Source: Eledone cirrhosa (Eukaryota). From it: a stretch of 64,000 nt of DNA. A program made the position numbers and the translations under genes. The notes beneath the pieces were generated by a model. That model was not told the origin of the DNA, searched no databases, and saw only the letters and a program-made list of their open reading frames with translations. The first letter of the stretch is position 1, and the number at the start of each line of letters is the position of its first letter. The stretch is taken from the NCBI GenBank assembly GCA_964016885.1, contig OZ024740.1, positions 378,138,001-378,202,000 on the forward strand, written 5' to 3'. Positions 3,902 through 64,000 of this stretch are shown here, in pieces.

Positions 3902-4095
3902 TGCGGTGGATTGGCAGTAATGGAAGAGAGTCGGACGCCATGCTTTGCAGCATAGAGTTACGCCTCTTTATGGTCTGAGTTCAAATCCCGCTGAGGTTAA
4001 CTTTGCCCTTCATCCTTACGGGGTTGATAAAATAAAGTACCAGTAATGCACTGGGATAATTGCTGGCCTTGTGCCAAAAGTAGAAACAATTATTA
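3902..4095 (+). mobile_element. tRNA-derived SINE family 1
   Basis: A-box-like tggcagtaatgg, B box gagttcaaatcc, central motif ttcatccttacggggtNgataaaataaagtaccag, (ATT)n-like tail. Related copies at ~6255-6430(-), 14876-15068(-), 28870-29060(+), 54028-54148(+); more diverged at 44760-44945(-), 50253-50395(+). Confidence 0.85.
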
Positions 4096-4404
4096 AACTT
4101 CATTTTCATTCTGGCTTTTAATTATCTAAATAAACATTGAATCTATGTAGATAATTGATTTTACTGTATAAGTTTCTTTTTACTTTTAAATTTAGTTGGC
4201 TTTGTTTGAGTAGACAATGGCAATGAAGCACTTAAAGATGACCAATAAAGCCAAACATACTACATTCAGTGCAGAATTTTAAGTCTTTCAACTGTAGTCA
4301 CGTTATTGATCTTGGAAAAATTGAGTGTTATGTCAAGACCTGCAGCTTTGTAAGCTAGTGTGGTGACAACTATATTGTCTCTAGTGGTGTCCTATGAATC
4401 TTCA

Positions 4405-5700: not shown

Positions 5701-7774
5701 TTTGTGGTCATCCTGAATCCCCTATTCTGTAAACACTATTTGTGTGTACTTTTACGTCTACAAAGTCTTGATGATGGTGATGAGTTCAGTTTGATATAGT
5801 AAGTTCATAGAATTATTAAAGGTTTCTTAGAAAACAAACAAACAAACAAAAAGCTTGTTTAGTCAGGGCTAAAAAAACATAATAGTAATATTGTTTTCTT
5901 GGAAAGGTGCAAGATTCAATATTTCTTGGAGAAGATTTTATTGAACCAATGCCATTATATTATTTATTGGCTTGGGAGGAGTGTAAAATAATGTAGAATC
6001 TGGCAGCCTGGCAAGGTTTGAATTAAAAAAAAGTCCATTATGTAACTAAATACTAGTGCTGTTGTTTTTGGCTTATTTTTGACTATCTTCATTACTTTTG
6101 TGATAGTTAAATTTTTCTAATTAATATTAATTGTGGCTATTTTGCATGACTGACATATGCTAAATTACTGAGTGCAGGAACTATAGTTTTTTCTTGTGCT
6201 AGTACTATGGAGCTTGAAAGAAATTAAAAGTATCTTACCATAGTAAAATGTATGGTAATAATTGTTTCTACTTTTGGCACAAGGCCAGCAATTATCCCAG
6301 TGCATTACTGGTACTTTATTTTATCGACCTCGTAAGGATGAAAGGCAAAGTTAACTTCGGCAGGATTTGAACTCAGATCATAAAGGGTTGTAACTCTTTG
6401 CTGCAAAGCATGGCGTCCGACTCTCTACCGATGTGGATTAGCTGAGATGGTAGTATGTATGAACCTGTAACTCCTGATGGAGTTGTAGGGGCACTGTAGT
6501 GACCTTTTGGGCATTTAAAACCTGGTGGTGCCCATCCCTCTCCAGTTCTGAATACAACTGATTTCTTCCAGAGAGTGAGAATGAGATATATTTGACAAAT
6601 CAACTGTAGTACTGGGCTGGTACTTTTAATTATTGACCTCAAAAGGCAAAGTTGAACTCATAGCACAGAGAGCTTGAATGAATACTGCAAAGCATTCTAT
6701 TGGACGTGCTAACAACTCTTCCAATTCACAGCCTATAGAGTTGGTGGAGCAGTGGATAAAAATGCCATGCAATATTTAGTTGTCTGTTCAACTTTGCTTT
6801 TCATCAAAGGTTGATAAAATATGCACCAATGATCTATCGGGATGATATAATTGATTATACTTCCCCTCCCCATATGTCAATGTAAGGCATTGTGGTCCAG
6901 TTAGAAATGAATGTTGCTATAGTAAAATAAATATTCTTTGGGAAGGTATGTTTGAAAGGATCCGTTAATATTTTGGAACAGTGAAAATTCTGAAAAATAA
7001 GGGCTGTAAAATCATTTGATATTTTGATACCTTTTGTAATATTTCTTAGCCTATCATGTGTTAAATTCATTTTGCCCCCCCCCCCCCCCCCCCCCCACAC
7101 ACACATTACATTTGATTGATTTAAGGTTTGTTCCTGGACACCATCGAGACTTTTCTATCTATTCTTGTGTATTGGCAAATGTTAAAATAATTACCGCTAA
7201 CTGAAATGTTAGACTTGATTAATTATTATATTATCCTCTCCTCTTAGAAATTGTTACGTCTAGCTGGCCTCATATGGCATTGCATGTTACTGGAGGTTTC
7301 TTTGGTGTTTTGCTGATAGGCTCCAGTCCTACCTTAACACAAATATAAAACATTAGTTTTCACCTTACTTTAACTCCTTGATCCAAAAATCTGTTACATG
7401 GCATTGTGTGTAGGCTGTGTAGCAGGGAAAATTTTGAGAAATGAAATTATAGCTTCTGAGGTTAAATGAAAATAATTATAAAGTATGAATCTTTAAATAT
7501 AGAATGTGTAAGTAAGTGGAAAAAAATGGGGATCATTAGAAAAAAAAAAATTCTAAACATATCAATAATTCCCAGCCTGGGTGACTGTGAGCTAAGGTCA
7601 ACATTTCAAGTTCTTTGTGAAAAAAAAATAAAAATTATTAAGTATAAACATTTCTTTCTTTCAATTGTTATTTTCACTGTATTGGGGAGGAAAATGATTG
7701 TAACAGTGGGTCCATGGGAAAATTAATTTATGTATAAAGAACTTTTGGTTGTGAAAAGGTTTGAAACTACTGTA

Positions 7775-9009
7775 TGGGGGTCAGCTGAAAAGTTCATAGG
7801 CTGACCAAGATACTCTCATGGAATGGGGCCAAATTATCTTTATTTTTCAACAGAGCCCCCCTTGCAATCCTCACACTTCTTCCATTAGTGTTGTAGTGCT
7901 TGGATCCCATATTGGTGAAGAAACTTTCATCCTGTTGGTAAAAAAAGTCATCAACAGCAGATATGACATCATCATCATCACTGCAATACTGGAGAACAGA
8001 TGGTAGTCAGATGGGGCCAAATCATGAGAATAGAGAGGGTGATCAACCCATTCAAAGCCACAGTCACACACAACAGCTATTGAAGCCAAGGACTTGTGTG
8101 CTGGAGCATTTTCCTGATGAAACAAGACCTCTTTCATCAGTTTTCTTGTCCATTTGGTCTTGATAGCCTTTCAGCAAATTAGCATAGTACTCTCCATTGA
8201 TGGTGTGGCTCTGTTGTAGGTAGTTAATAAACATAATGCCTTTTGCATCCCAAAAAACTGAAGTCATCACCTTCCCTGCAGATGAAACAACCTTGGCCTT
8301 GTTTGGAGTATGTGAGATGTTTCCACTGCATGGATTGTCTATTTGTCTCTGGCTCAAACACTCATCCTGTGTTAGGAAATATTCAAGGAAACCAGATAGA
8401 TCTGCCTCAAACAATGTCAAATTTTCCTATATGATCAACCTGGTGCACTTTTGACCAGGTGTCAGAAAACATGGCACCCACCGAGCAGAAACCTTCATCA
8501 TGCCAAGTTCATTGTGCAGAATATTCTTAACTCCTTTACAAGATATGCTAATAGCATTAGTTTTTGATTTATAGTCAATTGCCTGTTATCCATCACCATG
8601 TGGTGAACATGATCAATGTTTTCCTGTGGTGGCCATTGCAGGATGTCCAGACCTTCAGTCATCTTCAAGACTCTCTCTTCCCTTCCTAAATTCAGCTGCC
8701 CACTTTCACACTTAATAAAGTTGGAATGTAATCCTCTAATTTAGCAACCATGTCAGCATGAATATCTTTGGGGGATTAAACCCTTTTTCTGCAAGTACTT
8801 GATAACACCACAATGCCAAATTTTGTCCACTTTCAAGAGAAGTCGCCACTAGTTACTTTTGAAGTTTTCTTTGAACAATCAGATGTCAGTTTACTTGGAA
8901 AGAAACAATGTAGTTATTAAGAAGAAGAGTTGAAATTAAATCATGCAAGATTTCACAGCCTAACATCACACCTTCATAGTCAGCCTATGGACTTTTTAGC
9001 CCACCCTTG
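7775..9009 (-). mobile_element. Full-length degenerate mariner (Tc1/mariner) transposon with pseudogenised transposase
   Basis: Imperfect ~30 bp TIRs (gctgaaaagttcataggctgac / gtcagcctatggactttttagc), TA at both ends; motifs GKVMTSVFWDAKG, FHQENAPAH, HPLYSHDLAPSDYHLF (YSPDLAP-like); frameshifted. Confidence 0.93.
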
Positions 9010-12013: not shown

Positions 12014-53947
<41,934 letters not shown>

Positions 53948-54191
53948 GTAAGAAATCATTGTTTTTCCATTTTTCTAGCTTGTATTATACTATTCTTTTC
54001 ATTATCTTTCATAGTTATGCCCCTAGTCATTCTGAGTTCAAATCGTGCCAAGGTTAACTTTGCCTTTCATCCTTACGGGGTCAATAAAATAAAGTACCAG
54101 TAATGTACTGGGTAATTGCTAGCCTTGTGCCAAACGTAGAAACAATTATCTTTCATAGCATCACTTAAAACATTTAAGTGCTGGCCAATAT

Positions 54192-54236
<45 letters not shown>

Positions 54237-56390
54237 GTGAGGACCAAAAACGTGAGGTGTTCAGGATTGCTAGACAATGTGTCAAGGAAAACCGTGATAT
54301 TGTTGGGGAGAAGTGTGTCCGTAATGATAATGGTGTACTTACCCTCACTGATACTGATAACAAGATAGCTTGGAAGTGTCACTACGAGAGACTATTAAAT
54401 GAGAATAAATGGGATAAAGATAGTCTGCCCCACATCGATCCAATAAAAGGACCAGCGGTGCAAGTTAAAGGTAGTATAATAAGTAAGGCAATCAAAGATA
54501 TGAAGACAGGCAAGGCTGGGCCTTCAGAGATAGTTGCTGAGATGTTGAAGGCATCTGGAATGGTGGGACATACTATGGTCACCCGTATAGTTAACCAAGT
54601 AATATAGAATGGAGTCATACCAAAAGACTGGTGTAGCAGCATCATCATTAACTGCTACAAGGGTAAAGGGGATGCTCTAGATAGGGGAAACTATAGAGAC
54701 ATTAAGTTAATTGACCAGGTCATGAAAGTCACAGAAAGAGTTATAGTGCAACTAATCAGAGAGCGAATTGATCTAGATGAAATGCAGTTTGGGTTTGTGT
54801 CAGGTAAAAGTACCACAGATGCTCTTTTCCTTGTACGACAACTACAGGAGAACTACCTAGCTAAAAGTAAACCCCTCTACTTAGCTTTTGTAGACCTGGA
54901 GAAAGCCTTTGACAGAGTCCCCCGCTCCATTATCTGGTGGGCTCTTAGAAAACTAGGTGTAGAAGAATGGCTTGTGAGAGCTATACAAACTATGTATAAA
55001 GAAACAGCCAGTGAGGTTAGAATTAACAATGAATATTGTGAAAAAGTTGGTGTTCATCAAGGCTCTGTCCTTAACCCCCTCCTATTTATTATTGCCCTTC
55101 AGGCTATAACAGAGGAGTTTAAGACCAGCTGCCCATGGGAACTCCTATATGCAGATGATCTAACTCTCATAGCTGAATCTATGGCTGAACTAGAGAAGAA
55201 ATTCCAAACATGGAAGCATGGCCTAGAATCAAAAGGCCTTAAAGTTAACTTGTCTAAGTTTGTAGAAAGGAAAATAGGGCACAGGTGCCCTCAGGGAAAT
55301 GGCCATGCTCAGTGTGTAGGAAAGGAGTAGGCAGAAATTCCATTTTATGTCCCAAATGCAAACTATGGGTTCATAAAAGATGTAGTGGGATCACAGATGA
55401 ACTATCTAAGAACATAGATTTTATATGTGGCCGATGCACATGTGCAATAAGTAGCAAGTGCCCAGAGGATACTAGCTCTTTCTATTGCCTAGATGGTTCT
55501 ATAGCAATGGTGGACACTTTCTGTTACCTGGGTGAAAAAATTAGCAGTGGTGGAGGGTGCTCTGAAAGTACAGTAGCCAGAGTCAGAACGGGATTGAAAA
55601 AGTTCAGAGAGCTTATACCGCTGTTGGTCACAAAAGGTTTCTCTCTGAAAATAAAAGGCAGATTGTATGATGCCTGTATACGAACAGCAATGCTACATGG
55701 CAGTGAGACATGGGCATTGTGTGCAGAGGACCCGCGCAGACAGGAAAGAAACGAAGCATGCATGCTCCGTTGGATGTGTAATATTAATATATGTAAACAG
55801 CAAAGCATAAATGAACTAAGTGAGAAATTAGGAATAAGAGGGATCAGATGCCATTTACTTCAGAGAAGACTATGTTGGTATGGTCACATCAGGCGCATGA
55901 AAGACGACAGCTGTATAAAAAAGTGCAGGCCCATCAAAATTGATGGTAGTTACGGAGTAGGTAGACCCAGAAAAACCTGGGACAATTTGATAAATTCTGA
56001 CCTTACACACTTGCACCTCTCTAAGACAATGTCACTGGACCGAGATCTTTGGCGCTACGCAGTAATACAGAAGACCCACCTTGCCTATGTACAAAGCGAA
56101 ACCTACAGTCAGTAGGCACCTTTTAACCAAATATACACCCCAATCCACTACCCCTACCCTATCCTCCCACTAACACCACCCTCTCTCTGTAAAGTTGGTA
56201 CCACAACATCCAGTCCAAATAAATGAGATAATGAGATCGAGATCGTGTAGGTGTCACAACAAAAAAACACACAGTCCACACTGTAATGTGGCCGTGTAAA
56301 AAGTTCCCAGTTCCATACTGTAAATGTGGTTGGTGTTAGGAAGGGCATCCAGCCGTAGATAACCTGCCAGGTAGTCCTATATGAGCAAAC
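54237..56390 (+). mobile_element. RTE LINE subfamily B, 5'-truncated and missing its terminal tail
   Basis: ORFs 54257-54607, 54722-55330, 55285-56115 (one stop, one frameshift) with RT motifs LLYADD and DLEKAFDRV; starts directly after (CA)n(TA)n. Confidence 0.95.
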
Positions 56391-56522
56391 TTTCTCGTGA
56401 AGAGATTTCTTTGAGTTTCTAAACCACATTTCATGGACTCATATTCTCAGAGCGTAACTTTCCAGAAAACTTTGAATATGTTGAGAGATGTTTTGTTTCA
56501 TAGTGACGCCGAAGATTGTACT

Positions 56523-57133
56523 CTGTTTACTCGAGAGAAGACTACGTTGGTACGGTCACGTGATGCGCATGAAAGACGACAGCTGGATAAAAAAGTGCAG
56601 GGCGATAAAAATAGACGGTAGCCACGGAGTAGGTAGACCCAGAAAAACCTGGGACAATTTGATAAATTCTGACCTTACACACTTGCACCTCTCCAAGACA
56701 ATGTCACTGGACCGAGATCTTTGGCGATACACAGTAATACAGAAGACCCGCCTTGCCTAAGTACAGAGCGAAACCTACAGTCAGTAGGCACCTCTCACAA
56801 AAATACACCCCCGGCCCCCACTACCCCCACCCCATCCACACCACCCCTTCCAATGTAAAGTTATGTTGGGACCACAGCATCCAGTCCGAAACAAATAAGG
56901 GCGTGTAGGTGTCACGACAAAAAACACACAGTCCACGCTGTAATGTGGCCGTGTAGGTAACACGGTAAAAACCTCCCAGTCCACACTGTAAACGTGGTTG
57001 GTGTTAGGAATGGCATCCAGCCGTAGAAAACCCGCCAGACAGTCCTATACGAGCAAGACAACCAATCTTGCCTCAAGTGGGAAAATTCCCGTCCAAACCC
57101 ATGCTAGCGTGGAAAATGGACATTGATGATGAT
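56523..57133 (+). mobile_element. 5'-truncated RTE LINE subfamily B
   Basis: [13 protein letters not shown]...GRPRKTW; 3' UTR; GAT tail running into (TA)n. Confidence 0.92.
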
Positions 57134-57134
57134 A

Positions 57135-57175
<41 letters not shown>

Positions 57176-57580
57176 ATATATATGTGTATATATGTGTGTG
57201 TATATATATGTGTATATATATGTGTGTGTATATATATGTGTATATATATATGTGTATATATATATGTGTAGATATATATATATATATATATATATGTGTA
57301 TATATATATATATGTGTATATATATGTGTATATATATATGTATATATATATATATGTATGTATATATATATATGTATATATATGTGTATATATATATATA
57401 TATGTGTATATATATATGTATATATGTATATATATGTATATATGTATATATATATATATGTATATATATATGTATATATATATGTATATATATATATATG
57501 TATATATATATGTATATGTATATATATGTATATATATGTATATATATATGTATATGTATATATATATATGTATATATATA
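57134..57580. repeat. (TA)n/(TATG)n microsatellite
   Basis: Seen directly in the sequence. Confidence 0.97.
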
Positions 57581-58493
57581 TGTAGAAACAGTAGACAGCT
57601 TCTGCTACCTAGGTGACCGAATTAGCAACGGAGGTGGGTGCTCAGAAAGTACAATAACTAGGGTAAGAACGGGATGGAAGAAGTTTAGGGAACTACTACC
57701 ACTGCTAGCTGCAAAAGGCTTCTCCCTCAGAATGAAAGGCAGACTGTATGATGCGTGTATCCGAACAGCGATGTTGCATGGTAGTGAGACCTGGGCGCTG
57801 AAGGTGGAAGACTTATGTAGATTAGAGAGAAACGAAGCCTGCATGCTCCGATGGATGTGTAACAGTAATATACGTGAACGACAAAGCATAAATGAATTGA
57901 GAGAGAGACTGAGCATAAGAGGAATCAAATGCTGCGTGCAGGAGAGGCGGTTACGCTGGTATGGACATGTGATGCGTATGAAGGATGACAGCTGCATAAA
58001 AAGGTGCAGAGCACTAGAAGTTGATGGAAACCGCGGAGTGGGGAGACCCAAGATGACTTGGGATGAGGTGATAAAAGCCGACCTTACCCAACTACACCTC
58101 TCAAAGTCAATGACACACGACCGTGACTTCTGGCGTCACGCAGTAATACAGGGTACCCGACCTCCCATGGGTACATGCTGAAGCATATAAACAATATGCC
58201 CCCCCCCCCCCCCCCCACCGCAAGGTGGTCGTGGAGGTGCCACGGCAAAAAAGCACCCAGCCCACACTGTAAAGTAGACGTGTAGGCGCCACGAAAAAGC
58301 ACCCAGCACTCACTGTAAATGAGGTTGGTGTTAGGAAGGGCATCCAGCTGTAGAAATCAAGCCAGATCAGTTCCTGTATGAGCAAGGCATGGTCAGCCGA
58401 CCAGACACTGCCCACAACAGGACAACCCGTCTAACCCATGCTAGCGTGGAAGAACGGACGTAAAACGGTGATGATGATGATGATGATGATGAT
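57581..58493 (+). mobile_element. 5'-truncated RTE LINE subfamily A
   Basis: [12 protein letters not shown]...TRPPMGTC, nearly identical to the 18107-20375 copy; (GAT)n tail. Confidence 0.95.
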
Positions 58494-58707
58494 ATGTATA
58501 TATATATATATATGTATATATATATGTATATATATATGTATATATATATGTATATGTATATGTATATATATATGTATATATATATGTATATGTATATGTA
58601 TATATATATGTATATGTATATGTATATATATATGTATATGTATATATATATGTATGTATATATATGTATATATATATGTATATATATGTATATATATATA
58701 TATGTAT
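58494..58707. repeat. (TA)n/(TATG)n microsatellite between tail-to-tail RTEs
   Basis: Seen directly in the sequence. Confidence 0.97.
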
Positions 58708-60000
58708 ATCATCATCATCATCATCATCAACGTTTAACGTCCGTGTTCCACGCTTGCATGGGTTTGGACGGGGGTAGTCCCACTTGAGGCAAGAGTGATT
58801 GTCTTGCTCGCATAGGACTGTCTGGCAGGTTTTCTACTGTTGGATGCCCTTCCTAACACCAACCACATTTACAGTGTGGGTCTGGGAGGTTTTTACCGTG
58901 TTGCCTACACGGCCACATTACAGCGTGGACTGTGTGTTTTTTTGTCGTGACACCTACACGATCTCATTTGTTTCGGCCTGGATGGCGCGGCGCCAACATA
59001 ACTTTACATAGAACGGGGTGGTGTGGATGGGGTGGGGGTGGTGGCGGGACGGGGTGTAGTTTGTTAGAGATGCCTACTGGCAAGGCGGGTCTTCTCTGTT
59101 ACTGAGTACCGCCAAAGGTCACGGTCCAGTGTCATTGTCTTGGAGAGGTGTAAGTGTGTGAGGTCGGAGTTTATCAGCTCATCCCATGTTTTTCTAGGTC
59201 TGCCTATTCCGTGGCTACCGTCTATCTTTATTGCCCTGCACTTTGTAATACAGCTATCGACTTTCATGCGCATCACGTGTCCATACCAACGCAGCCTTCT
59301 CTCGAGTAAACAACATCTGATCCCTCTTATCTCTAATTTTTTCCTTAGTTCGTTTATGCTTTGCCGTTCACGTATATTACTGTTACACATCCAGCGGAGC
59401 ATGCAAGCTTCGTTCCTCTCTAGTCTGCGTATATCCTCTGCACACAATGCCCAGGTCTCACTACCATGCAACATTGCTGTTCGTATGCAGGCATCGTACA
59501 ACCTGCCTTTCATTTTTAGGGAGAACCCTTTAGCAGCTAATAGTGGTATAAGCTCTCTGAACTTTTTCCAACCAGTTCTGACTCTAGCTACAGTACTTTC
59601 AGAGCACCCTCCCCCACTGCTGATTTTATCGCCCAGGTAACGGAAGCTGTCCACTATTTCTATAGAACCCTCTGCGCAATTGAAAGAGCTAGTATTTTGT
59701 GGGCACTTGCTGCTACTTATTGCACCAGAACACCGGCCACATGTAAAGTCTATGTTCTTAGTTAGCTTACCTGTGATCCCACTACATCTTTTATGCACCC
59801 ATACTTTGCATTTAGGACATAAGATGGAGTTTCTACCTACGCCTTTCCTACATACCGAGCACGACCATTTCCCAGAAGGGACCGCCGCCTTGTTTTCTTT
59901 CCTACAAACTAGAACTTTGGTCTTAGCCAGGTTAATTTTAAGTCCTTTTGACTCTAGGCCGTGCTTCCATGTTTGGAATTTCTTCTCTAGCTCGGCCATA
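58708..60000 (-). mobile_element. 5'-truncated RTE LINE (B-related subfamily) with open frame
   Basis: ORF 59064-59999(-), 311 aa uninterrupted; GAT tail at 58708-58728. Confidence 0.95.
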
Positions 60001-61692
<1,692 letters not shown>

Positions 61693-62220
61693 GGAAAGTT
61701 ATATTTAAATTGTTGGGTTACAACTAGTAAATATTTATAACTGATATAAAAGCACTCAACAAGTATTTGGAGTATATTTACGATATTAAATAAATGGAAA
61801 CTATATTTATAAAACCATATTTATAACTGATATAAAAGCACTCAACAAGTATTTGGAGTATATTTACGATATTAAATAAATGGAAACTATATTTATAAAA
61901 CCATATTTATTTCATTATATATATTTCAGGGATATCATGTTAACAATATGTTATGCCTTCCTCAGACAAAATACAATATAGACAGTTTTATAGATAAATA
62001 GATTTGACATACCGTTCAACACCGACTTGTATTTGCCAAATCAACTTTTTCAAATACAAGTCGGTGTTGAACGGTATGTCAAATCTATTTATCTATAAAA
62101 CTGTCTATATTGTATTTTGTCTGAGGAAGGCATAACATATTGTTAATATGATATCCCTGAAATATATATAATGAAATAAATATGGTTTTATAAATATAGT
62201 TTCCATTTATTTAATATCGT
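61693..62220. mobile_element. Palindromic hammerhead-bearing element 2 embedded in (TA)n
   Basis: Arms 61866-62035 / 62051-62220, 15-nt spacer; left extension contains an 86-bp tandem duplication. Confidence 0.7.
62113..62178 (+). ncRNA. Type I hammerhead ribozyme (mirror copy 61908-61973 on minus strand)
   Basis: Stem I tattttgt/atgaaata; CTGAGGA 62121-27; stem II AGG-CAT-AAC...GTT..ATG..CCT; GAAA 62159-62; palindromic stem III ATATATAT; cleavage after A62170. Confidence 0.7.
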
Positions 62221-62985
<765 letters not shown>

Positions 62986-63642
62986 AATTAGTTTTGCGAG
63001 GTTTTTTATATGAAATCGTGTGTCGAAACAGATATTGTTATATTTGGGGAGGGTCATATTTGCGTAATATTGCCAGAATTAATAACAGAACACACTCACT
63101 GTTTGGTTGGTTTTCGCTTCTCGCTGTCTTTTATATATATATATCTGCGATCTAACTTACTCGGTCCTCAATGTTGCCATTGACTGACCGGCGGTCAAAA
63201 TAATACAGATACAATATAGACAAACACATATATATATAGTTTACATAAATCTTTCGTTGCACATCTGCAACATCGTCAGTGGTGTTATATTCATTGTTCC
63301 TCCTGTTGTGTTGTATGTCTACGCCATTTTTTTTGTTCAAAAAAAATGGCGTAGACATACAACACAACAGGAGGAACAATGAATATAACACCACTGACGA
63401 TGTTGCAGATGTGCAACGAAAGATTTATGTAAACTATATATATATGTGTTTGTCTATATTGTATCTGTATTATTTTTGACCGCCGGTCAGTCAATGGCAA
63501 CATTGAGGACCGAGTAAGTTAGATCGCAGATATATATATATAAAAGACAGCGAGAAGCGAAAACCAACCAAACAGTGAGTGTGTTCTGTTATTAATTCTG
63601 GCAATATTACGCAAATATGACCCTCCCCAAATATAACAATAT
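62986..63642. mobile_element. Palindromic element 3 with hammerhead-like core, embedded in (TA)n
   Basis: Arms 63032-63335 / 63338-63642, 2-nt loop, one 1-nt indel; 46-bp unpaired left extension. Confidence 0.7.
63383..63440 (+). ncRNA. Hammerhead-like motif with weak stem I (mirror ~63233-63290 on minus strand)
   Basis: CTGACGA 63394-400, T, stem II GTTGCA-gatg-TGCAAC, GAAA, near-palindromic AGATTT, A63427; stem I has only 2 contiguous pairs. Confidence 0.5.
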
Positions 63643-63667
63643 ATATATATATGTATATATATATATG

Positions 63668-63697
<30 letters not shown>

Positions 63698-63698
<1 letters not shown>

Positions 63699-64000
63699 CT
63701 ATAGAAATAGTGGACAGCTTCCGTTACCTGGGCGATAAAATCAGCAGTGGGGGAGGGTGCTCTGAAAGTACTGTAGCTAGAGTCAGAACTGGTTGGAAAA
63801 AGTTCAGAGAGCTTATACCACTATTAGCTGCTAAAGGGTTCTCCCTAAAAATGAAAGGCAGGTTGTACGATGCCTGCATACGAACAGCAATGTTTGCATG
63901 GTAGTGAGACCTGGGCATTGTGTGCAGAGGATATACGCAGACTAGAGAGGAACGAAGCTTGCATGCTCCGCTGGATGTGTAACAGTAATATACGTGAACG
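63698..64000 (+). mobile_element. 5'-truncated RTE LINE running off the window; inverted twin of 59365-59666
   Basis: [20 protein letters not shown]...; identical to the minus-strand copy except for one extra T. Confidence 0.93.

What the first reader, a model, noticed from the sequence alone, without database searches (positions are those of the whole stretch)
61866..62220. 170-bp-arm palindrome containing a second, AU-rich hammerhead family
Seen: arms differ by one substitution that I noticed (gttaacatg vs gttaatatg), with a 15-nt spacer. The core is CTGAGGA...GAAA with a long bulged stem II (AGG...CCT), helix III ATATATAT and an 8-bp stem I extendable by atatt/aatat and aaaac/gtttt. Helix III is itself a TA repeat, which could speculatively relate to TA-tract targeting.
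Basis: partly seen in the sequence, partly recalled or inferred. Interest (0 to 1): 0.72.

Follow-up and report, generated by a model that had tools for sequence, protein, structure and literature searches.

The report
Head-to-head Penelope retroelement ends, octopus
The palindrome is two mirror-image stumps of the hammerhead-bearing end of a Penelope-type jumping gene that landed in a TA repeat inside an octopus intron, a known kind of insertion whose small ribozyme fold is conserved across copies.

Summary
The palindrome is real: 170-bp arms (61866-62035, 62051-62220), one mismatch, 15-nt spacer. Each arm carries a type I hammerhead motif. In public reads it is a multicopy family. The core varies only at N7. 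One contig from another organism, phased by inference, shows three both-side changes in stem II. The left arm runs on into an 86-nt tail, and the family has both 3' ends, with the short one joined to (TA)n. Head-to-head arms, a one-sided tail, a minimal hammerhead with palindromic helix III and TA targets are the published anatomy of inverted pseudo-LTR insertions of Penelope-like elements (PLEs). Two unrelated palindromes of the same build lie in this window. The host is an octopus USP47 intron. No ORF is linked, so membership is inferred. In a read-through transcript the 170-bp hairpin (-266 kcal/mol) abolishes the ribozyme fold, so this copy is probably silent. The idea that helix III guides TA targeting is not supported. 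New member of a known kind; modest interest.

The parts
61694..61865 (-). Extension present on the left copy only: an 86-nt 'tail' beyond the short 3' end, lengthened here by an 86-bp duplication
   Evidence: 9,230 X12 reads leave the window at 61820 into sequence like 61709-61733, and X12 depth falls from about 10,200 (61822-30) to about 15 (61804-12).
61731..61910 (.). Rare or copy-specific tandem duplication, period 86 (94-nt match 61731-61824 / 61817-61910, so 8 nt of microhomology); holds no hammerhead
61866..62035 (-). Left arm: 5'-truncated copy of the element end, sense on the minus strand; carries the private change at 61939 that breaks one stem II pair
   Evidence: The family has the right-arm base in 98% (X1), 93% (X12) and 88% (X5) of depth.
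61908..61973 (-). Mirror hammerhead motif (core starts at 61965; predicted cleavage between 61916 and 61915)
62036..62050 (+). 15-nt spacer; probably family sequence belonging to the right copy, which reaches 15 nt further 5'
   Evidence: one X5 contig continues past the arm with 7 of 9 letters like the spacer's complement (compared by eye); X1 depth 1,600 over the spacer; 3 X12 reads join 62015 to 62060 on opposite strands. Inference.
62051..62220 (+). Right arm: 5'-truncated copy with the short 3' end, joined directly to (TA)n
   Evidence: The same end class is seen as loose ends into (TA)n in 5,368 X12 reads, 33 X1 contigs and 3 X5 contigs.
62113..62178 (+). Type I minimal hammerhead motif: stem I 62113-62120/62171-62178 (extendable to 62105/62185), CUGA-N-GA 62121-62127, stem II 62128-62158, GAAA 62159-62162, palindromic helix III 62162-62169, predicted cleavage after A62170 (triplet AUA)
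59998..61693 (.). Left TA/TATG microsatellite (insertion target; any target-site duplication is unreadable)
62221..62984 (.). Right TA/TATG microsatellite
52276..64000 (+). Host context: intron of a USP47 gene transcribed on the + strand
   Evidence: 100% over 89% of the 44-aa query to Octopus sinensis USP47; residues 14-746 of 1,497 map to 12014-52275, and no later residue maps in the window at 80% identity or more.

Best explanation
This is a stump-sized insertion of an endonuclease-bearing Penelope-like element (PLE): two 5'-truncated copies of the pseudo-LTR joined head to head, with no ORF left. SHOWN: the anatomy; a multicopy family in at least three organisms; two alternative 3' ends 50 and 136 nt downstream of the predicted cleavage site; insertion in TA repeats; conservation of the hammerhead core and stems. 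INFERRED: an autonomous partner elsewhere supplied RT and GIY-YIG endonuclease and nicked the TA tract. Two cDNAs were then made from one template type, one started at the distal site (left copy, with tail) and one at the proximal site (right copy). Both aborted about 120-135 nt upstream of the cleavage site and were joined at a short inverted match around the spacer (about 50% for this twin-priming step; self-priming is the alternative). The hammerhead is the family's dimer-type, probably protein-assisted ribozyme and was under selection in the master elements. At this locus it is a passenger: USP47 pre-mRNA would form the 170-bp hairpin instead.
For: Anatomy matches Adineta Pen2a (inverted pLTR adjacent at the 5' end, tail on one end, head-to-head palindromic junctions; PMC3846280) and the general PLE scheme (PMC8557442). 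Dual minimal hammerheads 100-700 bp apart on opposite strands, long helix II and palindromic helix III are described for PLEs (PMC4209133). The tail equals the stretch between two RT start sites, and both target strands are cut and extended (PMC11167929). Family data: 31,121 X12 reads, 4,191 X1 contigs, 81 X5 contigs and 3 X7 contigs laid; both end classes present; X1 depth falls from 937k at the core to 1.6k at the spacer. None of 11 invariant core positions has a listed variant, while N7 is G, U or A. Three both-side Watson-Crick changes in stem II in one X5 contig (P 0.0007 by permutation); one of them recurs in an X7 contig. Both arms share a base (62022/62064) that almost no family read has, so they come from one event. 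Two unrelated inverted hammerhead elements lie in the same window. PLEs are 6.83% of the O. vulgaris genome, with 31 recently active families.
Against: No RT or GIY-YIG ORF is linked. None was seen among 108 window ORFs scanned (108 of 275 candidates), and no genome was available. The tail (86 nt) is longer than the 30-40 bp in print. No target-site duplication can be read. Rfam does not recognise the motif and the fold is no better than shuffles. The unphased pair test is weak if most changes are transitions (P 0.02 at 60%, 0.09 at 80%, 0.27 at 100%), and core invariance alone gives P 0.03-0.11. Two of 42 variant rows were not shown. Two distal stem II pairs are lost in the X5 and X7 contigs. 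The closing pair is A-U in the covarying register, not the usual G10.1-C11.1. Contig depth is not copy number, RAD reads over-weight a few loci, and hairpin DNA may sequence poorly, so the 5' decline is not proof of truncation.
Confidence: 0.85

Rival explanations
1. A stand-alone non-autonomous retrozyme- or SINE-like unit with its own short RNA, mobilised by PLE proteins and never part of an ORF-bearing element.
For: Most laid family sequence covers only about 150 nt around and downstream of the hammerhead. Non-LTR retrozymes carry type I hammerheads and are proposed to derive from pLTRs. Six X12 reads from 2 starts show a head-to-tail join 61919 to 61865.
Against: Retrozymes are tandem arrays with a hammerhead in each unit; this is head to head, and the one local tandem (86 bp) lacks the hammerhead. 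The head-to-tail join is not at the cleavage site: it starts 4 nt upstream with 4 letters between.
Confidence: 0.08
2. A MITE or foldback DNA transposon whose long terminal inverted repeats happen to carry a hammerhead; the whole palindrome is the mobile unit and TA is its target-site duplication.
For: Near-perfect 170-bp inverted repeats flanked by TA; no coding capacity.
Against: The ends are asymmetric, and both end classes are common in the family. Depth is not flat along the arm. Only 3 X12 reads cross this centre, against about 3,200 depth in the adjoining bin. The hammerhead shows strand-specific RNA-type conservation with G.U-tolerated changes. Caveat: hairpin DNA can be lost in library making.
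Confidence: 0.04
3. The motif is a chance match in 75% AT sequence, or the palindrome is a fold-back artefact of sequencing or assembly.
For: No folding z-score and no Rfam hit. No laid contig spans the whole stretch.
Against: 0 of 60 shuffles give the motif. N7-only core variation and covariation in other organisms. A non-palindromic spacer, one mismatch, unequal ends, and three such hammerhead palindromes in 64 kb.
Confidence: 0.03

Closest known systems
Inverted pseudo-LTR insertions of endonuclease-bearing PLEs (Adineta vaga Pen2a/Pen2, Arkhipova et al. 2013, PMC3846280; scheme in Craig et al. 2021, PMC8557442)
   Same: Head-to-head inverted end copies of about 170-185 bp, a slightly shorter inverted copy, a tail on one end only, AT-rich or microsatellite target.
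   Different: No ORF or second direct pLTR remains; the tail is 86 nt instead of 30-40; the target-site duplication is unreadable; a private 86-bp duplication is present.
Minimal type I hammerheads of metazoan PLEs (Cervera and de la Pena 2014, PMC4209133)
   Same: CUGA-N-GA and GAAA core, long helix II, palindromic helix III that needs a dimer, pairs of motifs on opposite strands 100-700 bp apart.
   Different: About 25% G+C; helix II of 12-14 bp with internal mismatches; 8-nt AU palindrome; covariation favours an A-U closing pair. A U-to-C variant at 62158 (15-21% in organism A) would restore the usual extra nucleotide plus G10.1-C11.1.
Poseidon element PAc of Anolis (Frangieh et al. 2024, PMC11167929)
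   Same: Two alternative 3' ends downstream of the hammerhead that bound a tail; AT-rich target.
   Different: In PAc the hammerhead overlaps the ORF start; here no conserved start codon is seen (the ATG at 62171-62173 is followed by a stop and varies in 12-43% of depth).
Non-LTR retrozymes (bioRxiv 10.64898/2026.07.22.740005)
   Same: Non-coding, type I hammerhead, PLE-related.
   Different: Not a head-to-tail array of hammerhead-bearing monomers.
Naiad_Ovul and Naiad_Obim (octopus Naiad PLEs, supplement of PMC8557442)
   Same: Octopus PLEs with (TA)n preference.
   Different: Listed with only a half core or no hammerhead. Four short words of this family were absent from the supplement, and the Naiad_Ovul 3' end does not align by eye.

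Membership tests
Endonuclease-bearing Penelope-like elements | Single ORF with telomerase-like RT and GIY-YIG endonuclease linked to the pLTR | not testable with these tools
   The copy is a stump; no genome held; no GIY-YIG among 108 window ORFs; pattern scans of prokaryotic, viral and metagenome collections were empty.
Endonuclease-bearing Penelope-like elements | Inverted 5'-truncated copy adjacent head to head | tested here: met
   compare.
Endonuclease-bearing Penelope-like elements | Optional tail on one end; two 3' end classes in the family | tested here: met
   5,368 X12 reads end into (TA)n at 61859, and 9,230 run on through the tail. The length, 86 nt, exceeds the published 30-40.
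Endonuclease-bearing Penelope-like elements | Type I hammerhead near the 3' end of the pLTR | tested here: met
Endonuclease-bearing Penelope-like elements | Multicopy with frequent 5' truncation | tested here: inconclusive
   Multicopy is met and depth declines 5' in X1, X5 and X12, but contig depth and RAD sampling are biased.
Endonuclease-bearing Penelope-like elements | Target-site duplication or AT-rich/microsatellite target | tested here: inconclusive
   TA target met; a duplication cannot be read inside the microsatellite.
Type I hammerhead ribozyme | Invariant core C3 U4 G5 A6 N7 G8 A9 ... G12 A13 A14, A15.1-U16.1, H17 (numbering recalled) | tested here: met
   All present; 0 of 11 invariant positions has a listed variant, N7 varies (40 of 42 variant rows seen).
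Type I hammerhead ribozyme | Stems I and II supported by covariation | tested here: met
   Stem II: three both-side changes in one contig phased by inference. Stem I: only one-side changes that keep pairing.
Type I hammerhead ribozyme | Match to an Rfam hammerhead model | tested here: not met
   Minimal PLE motifs were found in print with custom descriptors, so this lowers the Rfam label, not the functional likeness.
Type I hammerhead ribozyme | Self-cleavage at the predicted site | not testable with these tools
   Needs an assay.
Non-LTR retrozyme | Tandem monomers, each with a hammerhead | tested here: not met
   definition.
MITE / foldback DNA transposon | Fixed, symmetric unit bounded by terminal inverted repeats | tested here: not met
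   Asymmetric ends and uneven family depth.

The most novel reading that the evidence does not exclude
The AU palindrome of helix III does double duty. As RNA it pairs two hammerheads into the active dimer. As DNA it is a built-in TA site where the element's own TA-preferring machinery inserts or attaches the next copy, creating the partial tandems that supply a promoter and a dimer partner. The only support is one head-to-tail join seen in 6 reads from 2 starts, where a short 3' end meets another copy inside helix III. The tail on one arm and the extra 15 nt on the other would in addition record twin priming from the two RT start sites, which a single fold-back cannot give.
Probability: 0.12. 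Interest if true: 0.55.

Novelty: new member of a known kind. Interest (0 to 1): 0.25.

Why it matters
As it stands it adds an AU-rich octopus family to a known class. I found no paper describing octopus PLE hammerheads, but the O. vulgaris repeat library is on Zenodo and could not be read, so the family may already be catalogued. Its use is as test material. How PLEs make head-to-head ends is called unresolved in print, and this window alone holds three unrelated examples. Counting which arm owns the tail and which owns the spacer across an octopus genome would separate twin priming from self-priming. A near-perfect 170-bp hairpin in USP47 pre-mRNA would also be a likely substrate for A-to-I editing (own knowledge of cephalopod editing; not tested).

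Tried and rejected
Rfam at gathering and E-value thresholds: no hammerhead, only generic hairpin (miRNA) matches below cut-off. Own genome search: none held. Exact-pattern scans of metagenome (2), viral (1) and prokaryotic genome (1) collections: 0 hits each. Sequencing runs: no RNA holder listed; this says nothing on expression. No pile-up of molecule ends at the predicted cleavage site in DNA reads; the only listed place is 61999. Pfam on 108 of 275 window ORFs: only LINE RT and PHD, mariner transposase, UCH and weak hits. Folding the cDNA end as DNA gave no stable fold-back primer (-1.6 to -3.1 kcal/mol). Identity with the octopus Naiads: rejected. The O. vulgaris repeat paper's supplement holds no sequences of this family. 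Lunse et al. on dimer-cleaving PLE hammerheads is not held; I saw only its title in a reference list. A fold-back literature search returned general DNA-repair papers (listing only). Earlier scan notes by sequence and place: none.

Full report
Observation. The palindrome is as described: arms 61866-62035 and 62051-62220, 170 bp, one mismatch (61939 against 62147), 15-nt spacer. The hammerhead core starts at 62121 on + and at 61965 on -. Stem I has 8 bp and 7 more after a bulge, stem II has 12 pairs, and helix III AUAUAUAU is self-complementary. Predicted cleavage is after A62170; core numbering is recalled. A type I descriptor, written after seeing the motif, hit only these two sites and none of 60 shuffled windows. 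Against this, the fold is no more stable than shuffles, stem I is weak (pair probability 0.04-0.07), and Rfam does not recognise it.

Wider anatomy. The left copy continues to 61694. After removing an 86-bp tandem duplication it has an 86-nt extension that the right copy lacks. The element lies between TA/TATG tracts in an intron of USP47. An exon matched Octopus sinensis USP47 at 100%, and residues 14-746 of 1,497 map to 12014-52275 on +. Two unrelated inverted elements with hammerhead-like cores lie at 62987-63642 (304-bp arms, 0 mismatches, 1 gap, 45-nt extension on the left only) and 31099-32183.

Family evidence. Ten runs from 6 studies hold part of the stretch. Four of 14 listed runs were laid on 61795-62060: 4,191 contigs (X1) and 31,121 raw reads (X12) of organism A, 81 contigs of organism B (X5) and 3 of organism D (X7). 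Two 3' end classes appear: 5,368 X12 reads leave at 61859 into (TA)n, the end of the right arm, and 9,230 run through the tail without the duplication. The ends lie 50 and 136 nt downstream of the predicted cleavage site. Depth falls towards the centre (X1 937k at the core, 1.6k at the spacer). Contig depth is not copy number, RAD reads over-weight a few loci, and hairpins may sequence poorly. Both arms share a base at 62022/62064 that is replaced in nearly all family depth, so both came from one template or were later homogenised. The 61939 mismatch is private to the left arm.

Ribozyme conservation. Of the 40 variant rows shown (42 exist), I analysed the 18 between 61912 and 61993. None touches the 11 invariant core positions; N7 is G, U or A in all three well-covered runs. 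Chance of no core hit is 0.03-0.11. Seven of 10 variants at paired positions keep pairing (P 0.0005 to 0.27 depending on the transition share assumed). One of the three breaks, at 62158, would give the usual G10.1-C11.1 in a shifted register (noticed afterwards). One X5 contig could be phased by depth sums and distance to its end, with its loose part aligned by hand. It has G-C to A-U (62129/62157), U-A to C-G (62133/62153) and a mismatch turned C-G (62135/62151), an intact core, and two distal pairs lost (permutation P 0.0007, one contig, inferred phase). An X7 contig repeats the third change. Stem I shows only one-side changes that keep pairing. The motif was therefore selected as RNA structure in the family.

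What it is. Published PLE anatomy fits point by point. PMC3846280 (passages) describes an inverted pLTR adjacent at the 5' end, a tail on one end and head-to-head palindromic junctions. PMC8557442 (passages, section 11, supplement rows and one supplement part) gives the same scheme and (TA)n bias, attributed to the endonuclease linker. PMC4209133 (parts 1-2 of 4) describes minimal hammerheads with long helix II and palindromic helix III, low dimer activity, and pairs on opposite strands 100-700 bp apart. PMC11167929 (parts 1-2 of 4) shows that the tail lies between two internal RT start sites, that both target strands are cut and extended, and that the hammerhead is protein-assisted and dispensable for insertion in vitro. 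PMC13282606 (passages and supplement rows) reports PLEs at 6.83% of O. vulgaris, 190 families, 31 recently active. PMC6765202 (passages) reviews the dimer model. The retrozyme preprint was read in part 1 of 5. PMC7943196 (passages) added nothing. The defining ORF link could not be tested.

How it arose (inferred). A PLE protein-RNA complex nicked the TA tract. The tail is on the left copy, while the spacer seems to belong to the right copy (one X5 contig, 7 of 9 letters by eye; X1 depth 1,600). A single cDNA folding back cannot give a second arm longer than its template, so two priming events, one from each start site, joined at the short inverted match around the spacer, fit best. No stable fold-back primer was found. 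This rests on thin evidence for spacer ownership; I give it about even odds against self-priming models.

Function here. In USP47 pre-mRNA the left arm is made first and pairs with the right. The hairpin is -266.3 kcal/mol against -6 to -11 for the hammerhead stems, whose pair probabilities fall to 0. Each strand has one sense motif, so there is no dimer partner in cis. The local copy is probably silent.

Helix III need only be palindromic. It carries a G in 36-66% of family depth while keeping dimer pairing, and the two neighbouring TA-inserted elements have other helix III sequences. One join seen in 6 reads from 2 starts places a short 3' end inside helix III of another copy. That leaves open a role as DNA target, kept as the novel case.

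Earlier scan notes. One AI note on a shark genome reaches a similar reading. It pointed me to PMC3846280 and is not independent evidence.

Verdict. Real, conserved, and of a known kind: a head-to-head pLTR stump of a PLE-type family. Interest 0.25. I found no description of octopus PLE hammerheads, but the Zenodo library and subscription papers were out of reach.

Noticed in passing
window 62987-63642: Second head-to-head element: 304-bp arms with 0 mismatches and 1 gap, 2-nt centre, 45-nt extension on the left only, hammerhead-like core at 63394 (+) and 63279 (-) with a clean 6-bp stem II but only 2 bp of stem I next to the core. It shares about 13 letters with the finding's element.
   Followed up: partly
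window 31099-32183: Third, more rearranged inverted element with a typical minimal hammerhead (cores 31337 on -, 31875 on +; helix III ACUAGU), arms about 98% alike, with internal duplications, in a TA tract of a USP47 intron.
   Followed up: partly
window 59365-59666 and 63698-64000: Two LINE fragments are inverted copies at 99.67% over 303 bp up to the window end, while other copies of the family here are 79-84% like it. They enclose both palindromes and the TA tracts, which suggests a larger local inverted duplication; unexplained.
   Followed up: partly
window 57522-57880 and 63644-64000: Two LINE copies are 5'-truncated at almost the same codon and preceded directly by TA tracts; possible truncation or attachment hot spot.
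   Followed up: no
window 61928 (loose ends): A sister subfamily (80 X1 contigs, 1,860 X12 reads, 1 X5 contig) shares everything from GAAA downstream but has a different stem II; consensus agreement is only about 0.6.
   Followed up: partly
window 61859-61878 (joint): 21 X12 reads from 3 starts join two 3' ends on opposite strands, so tail-to-tail arrangements also exist in the family.
   Followed up: no
window 61695-61820, minus strand: A 42-codon open frame runs through the tail region despite about 78% AT; no start codon and no Pfam match.
   Followed up: partly
window 12014-52275: Twelve exon matches of a USP47 gene on the + strand at 80% identity or more; introns also hold RT-bearing LINE pieces (15550-20391, 54140-56112) and mariner-type transposase remnants (280-492, 8067-8426) lie upstream.
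   Followed up: partly
window 27605-27948 with 33779-34123; 3922-4106 with 6245-6429: Further inverted repeat pairs a few kb apart (97% over 345 bp; 91% over 185 bp).
   Followed up: no
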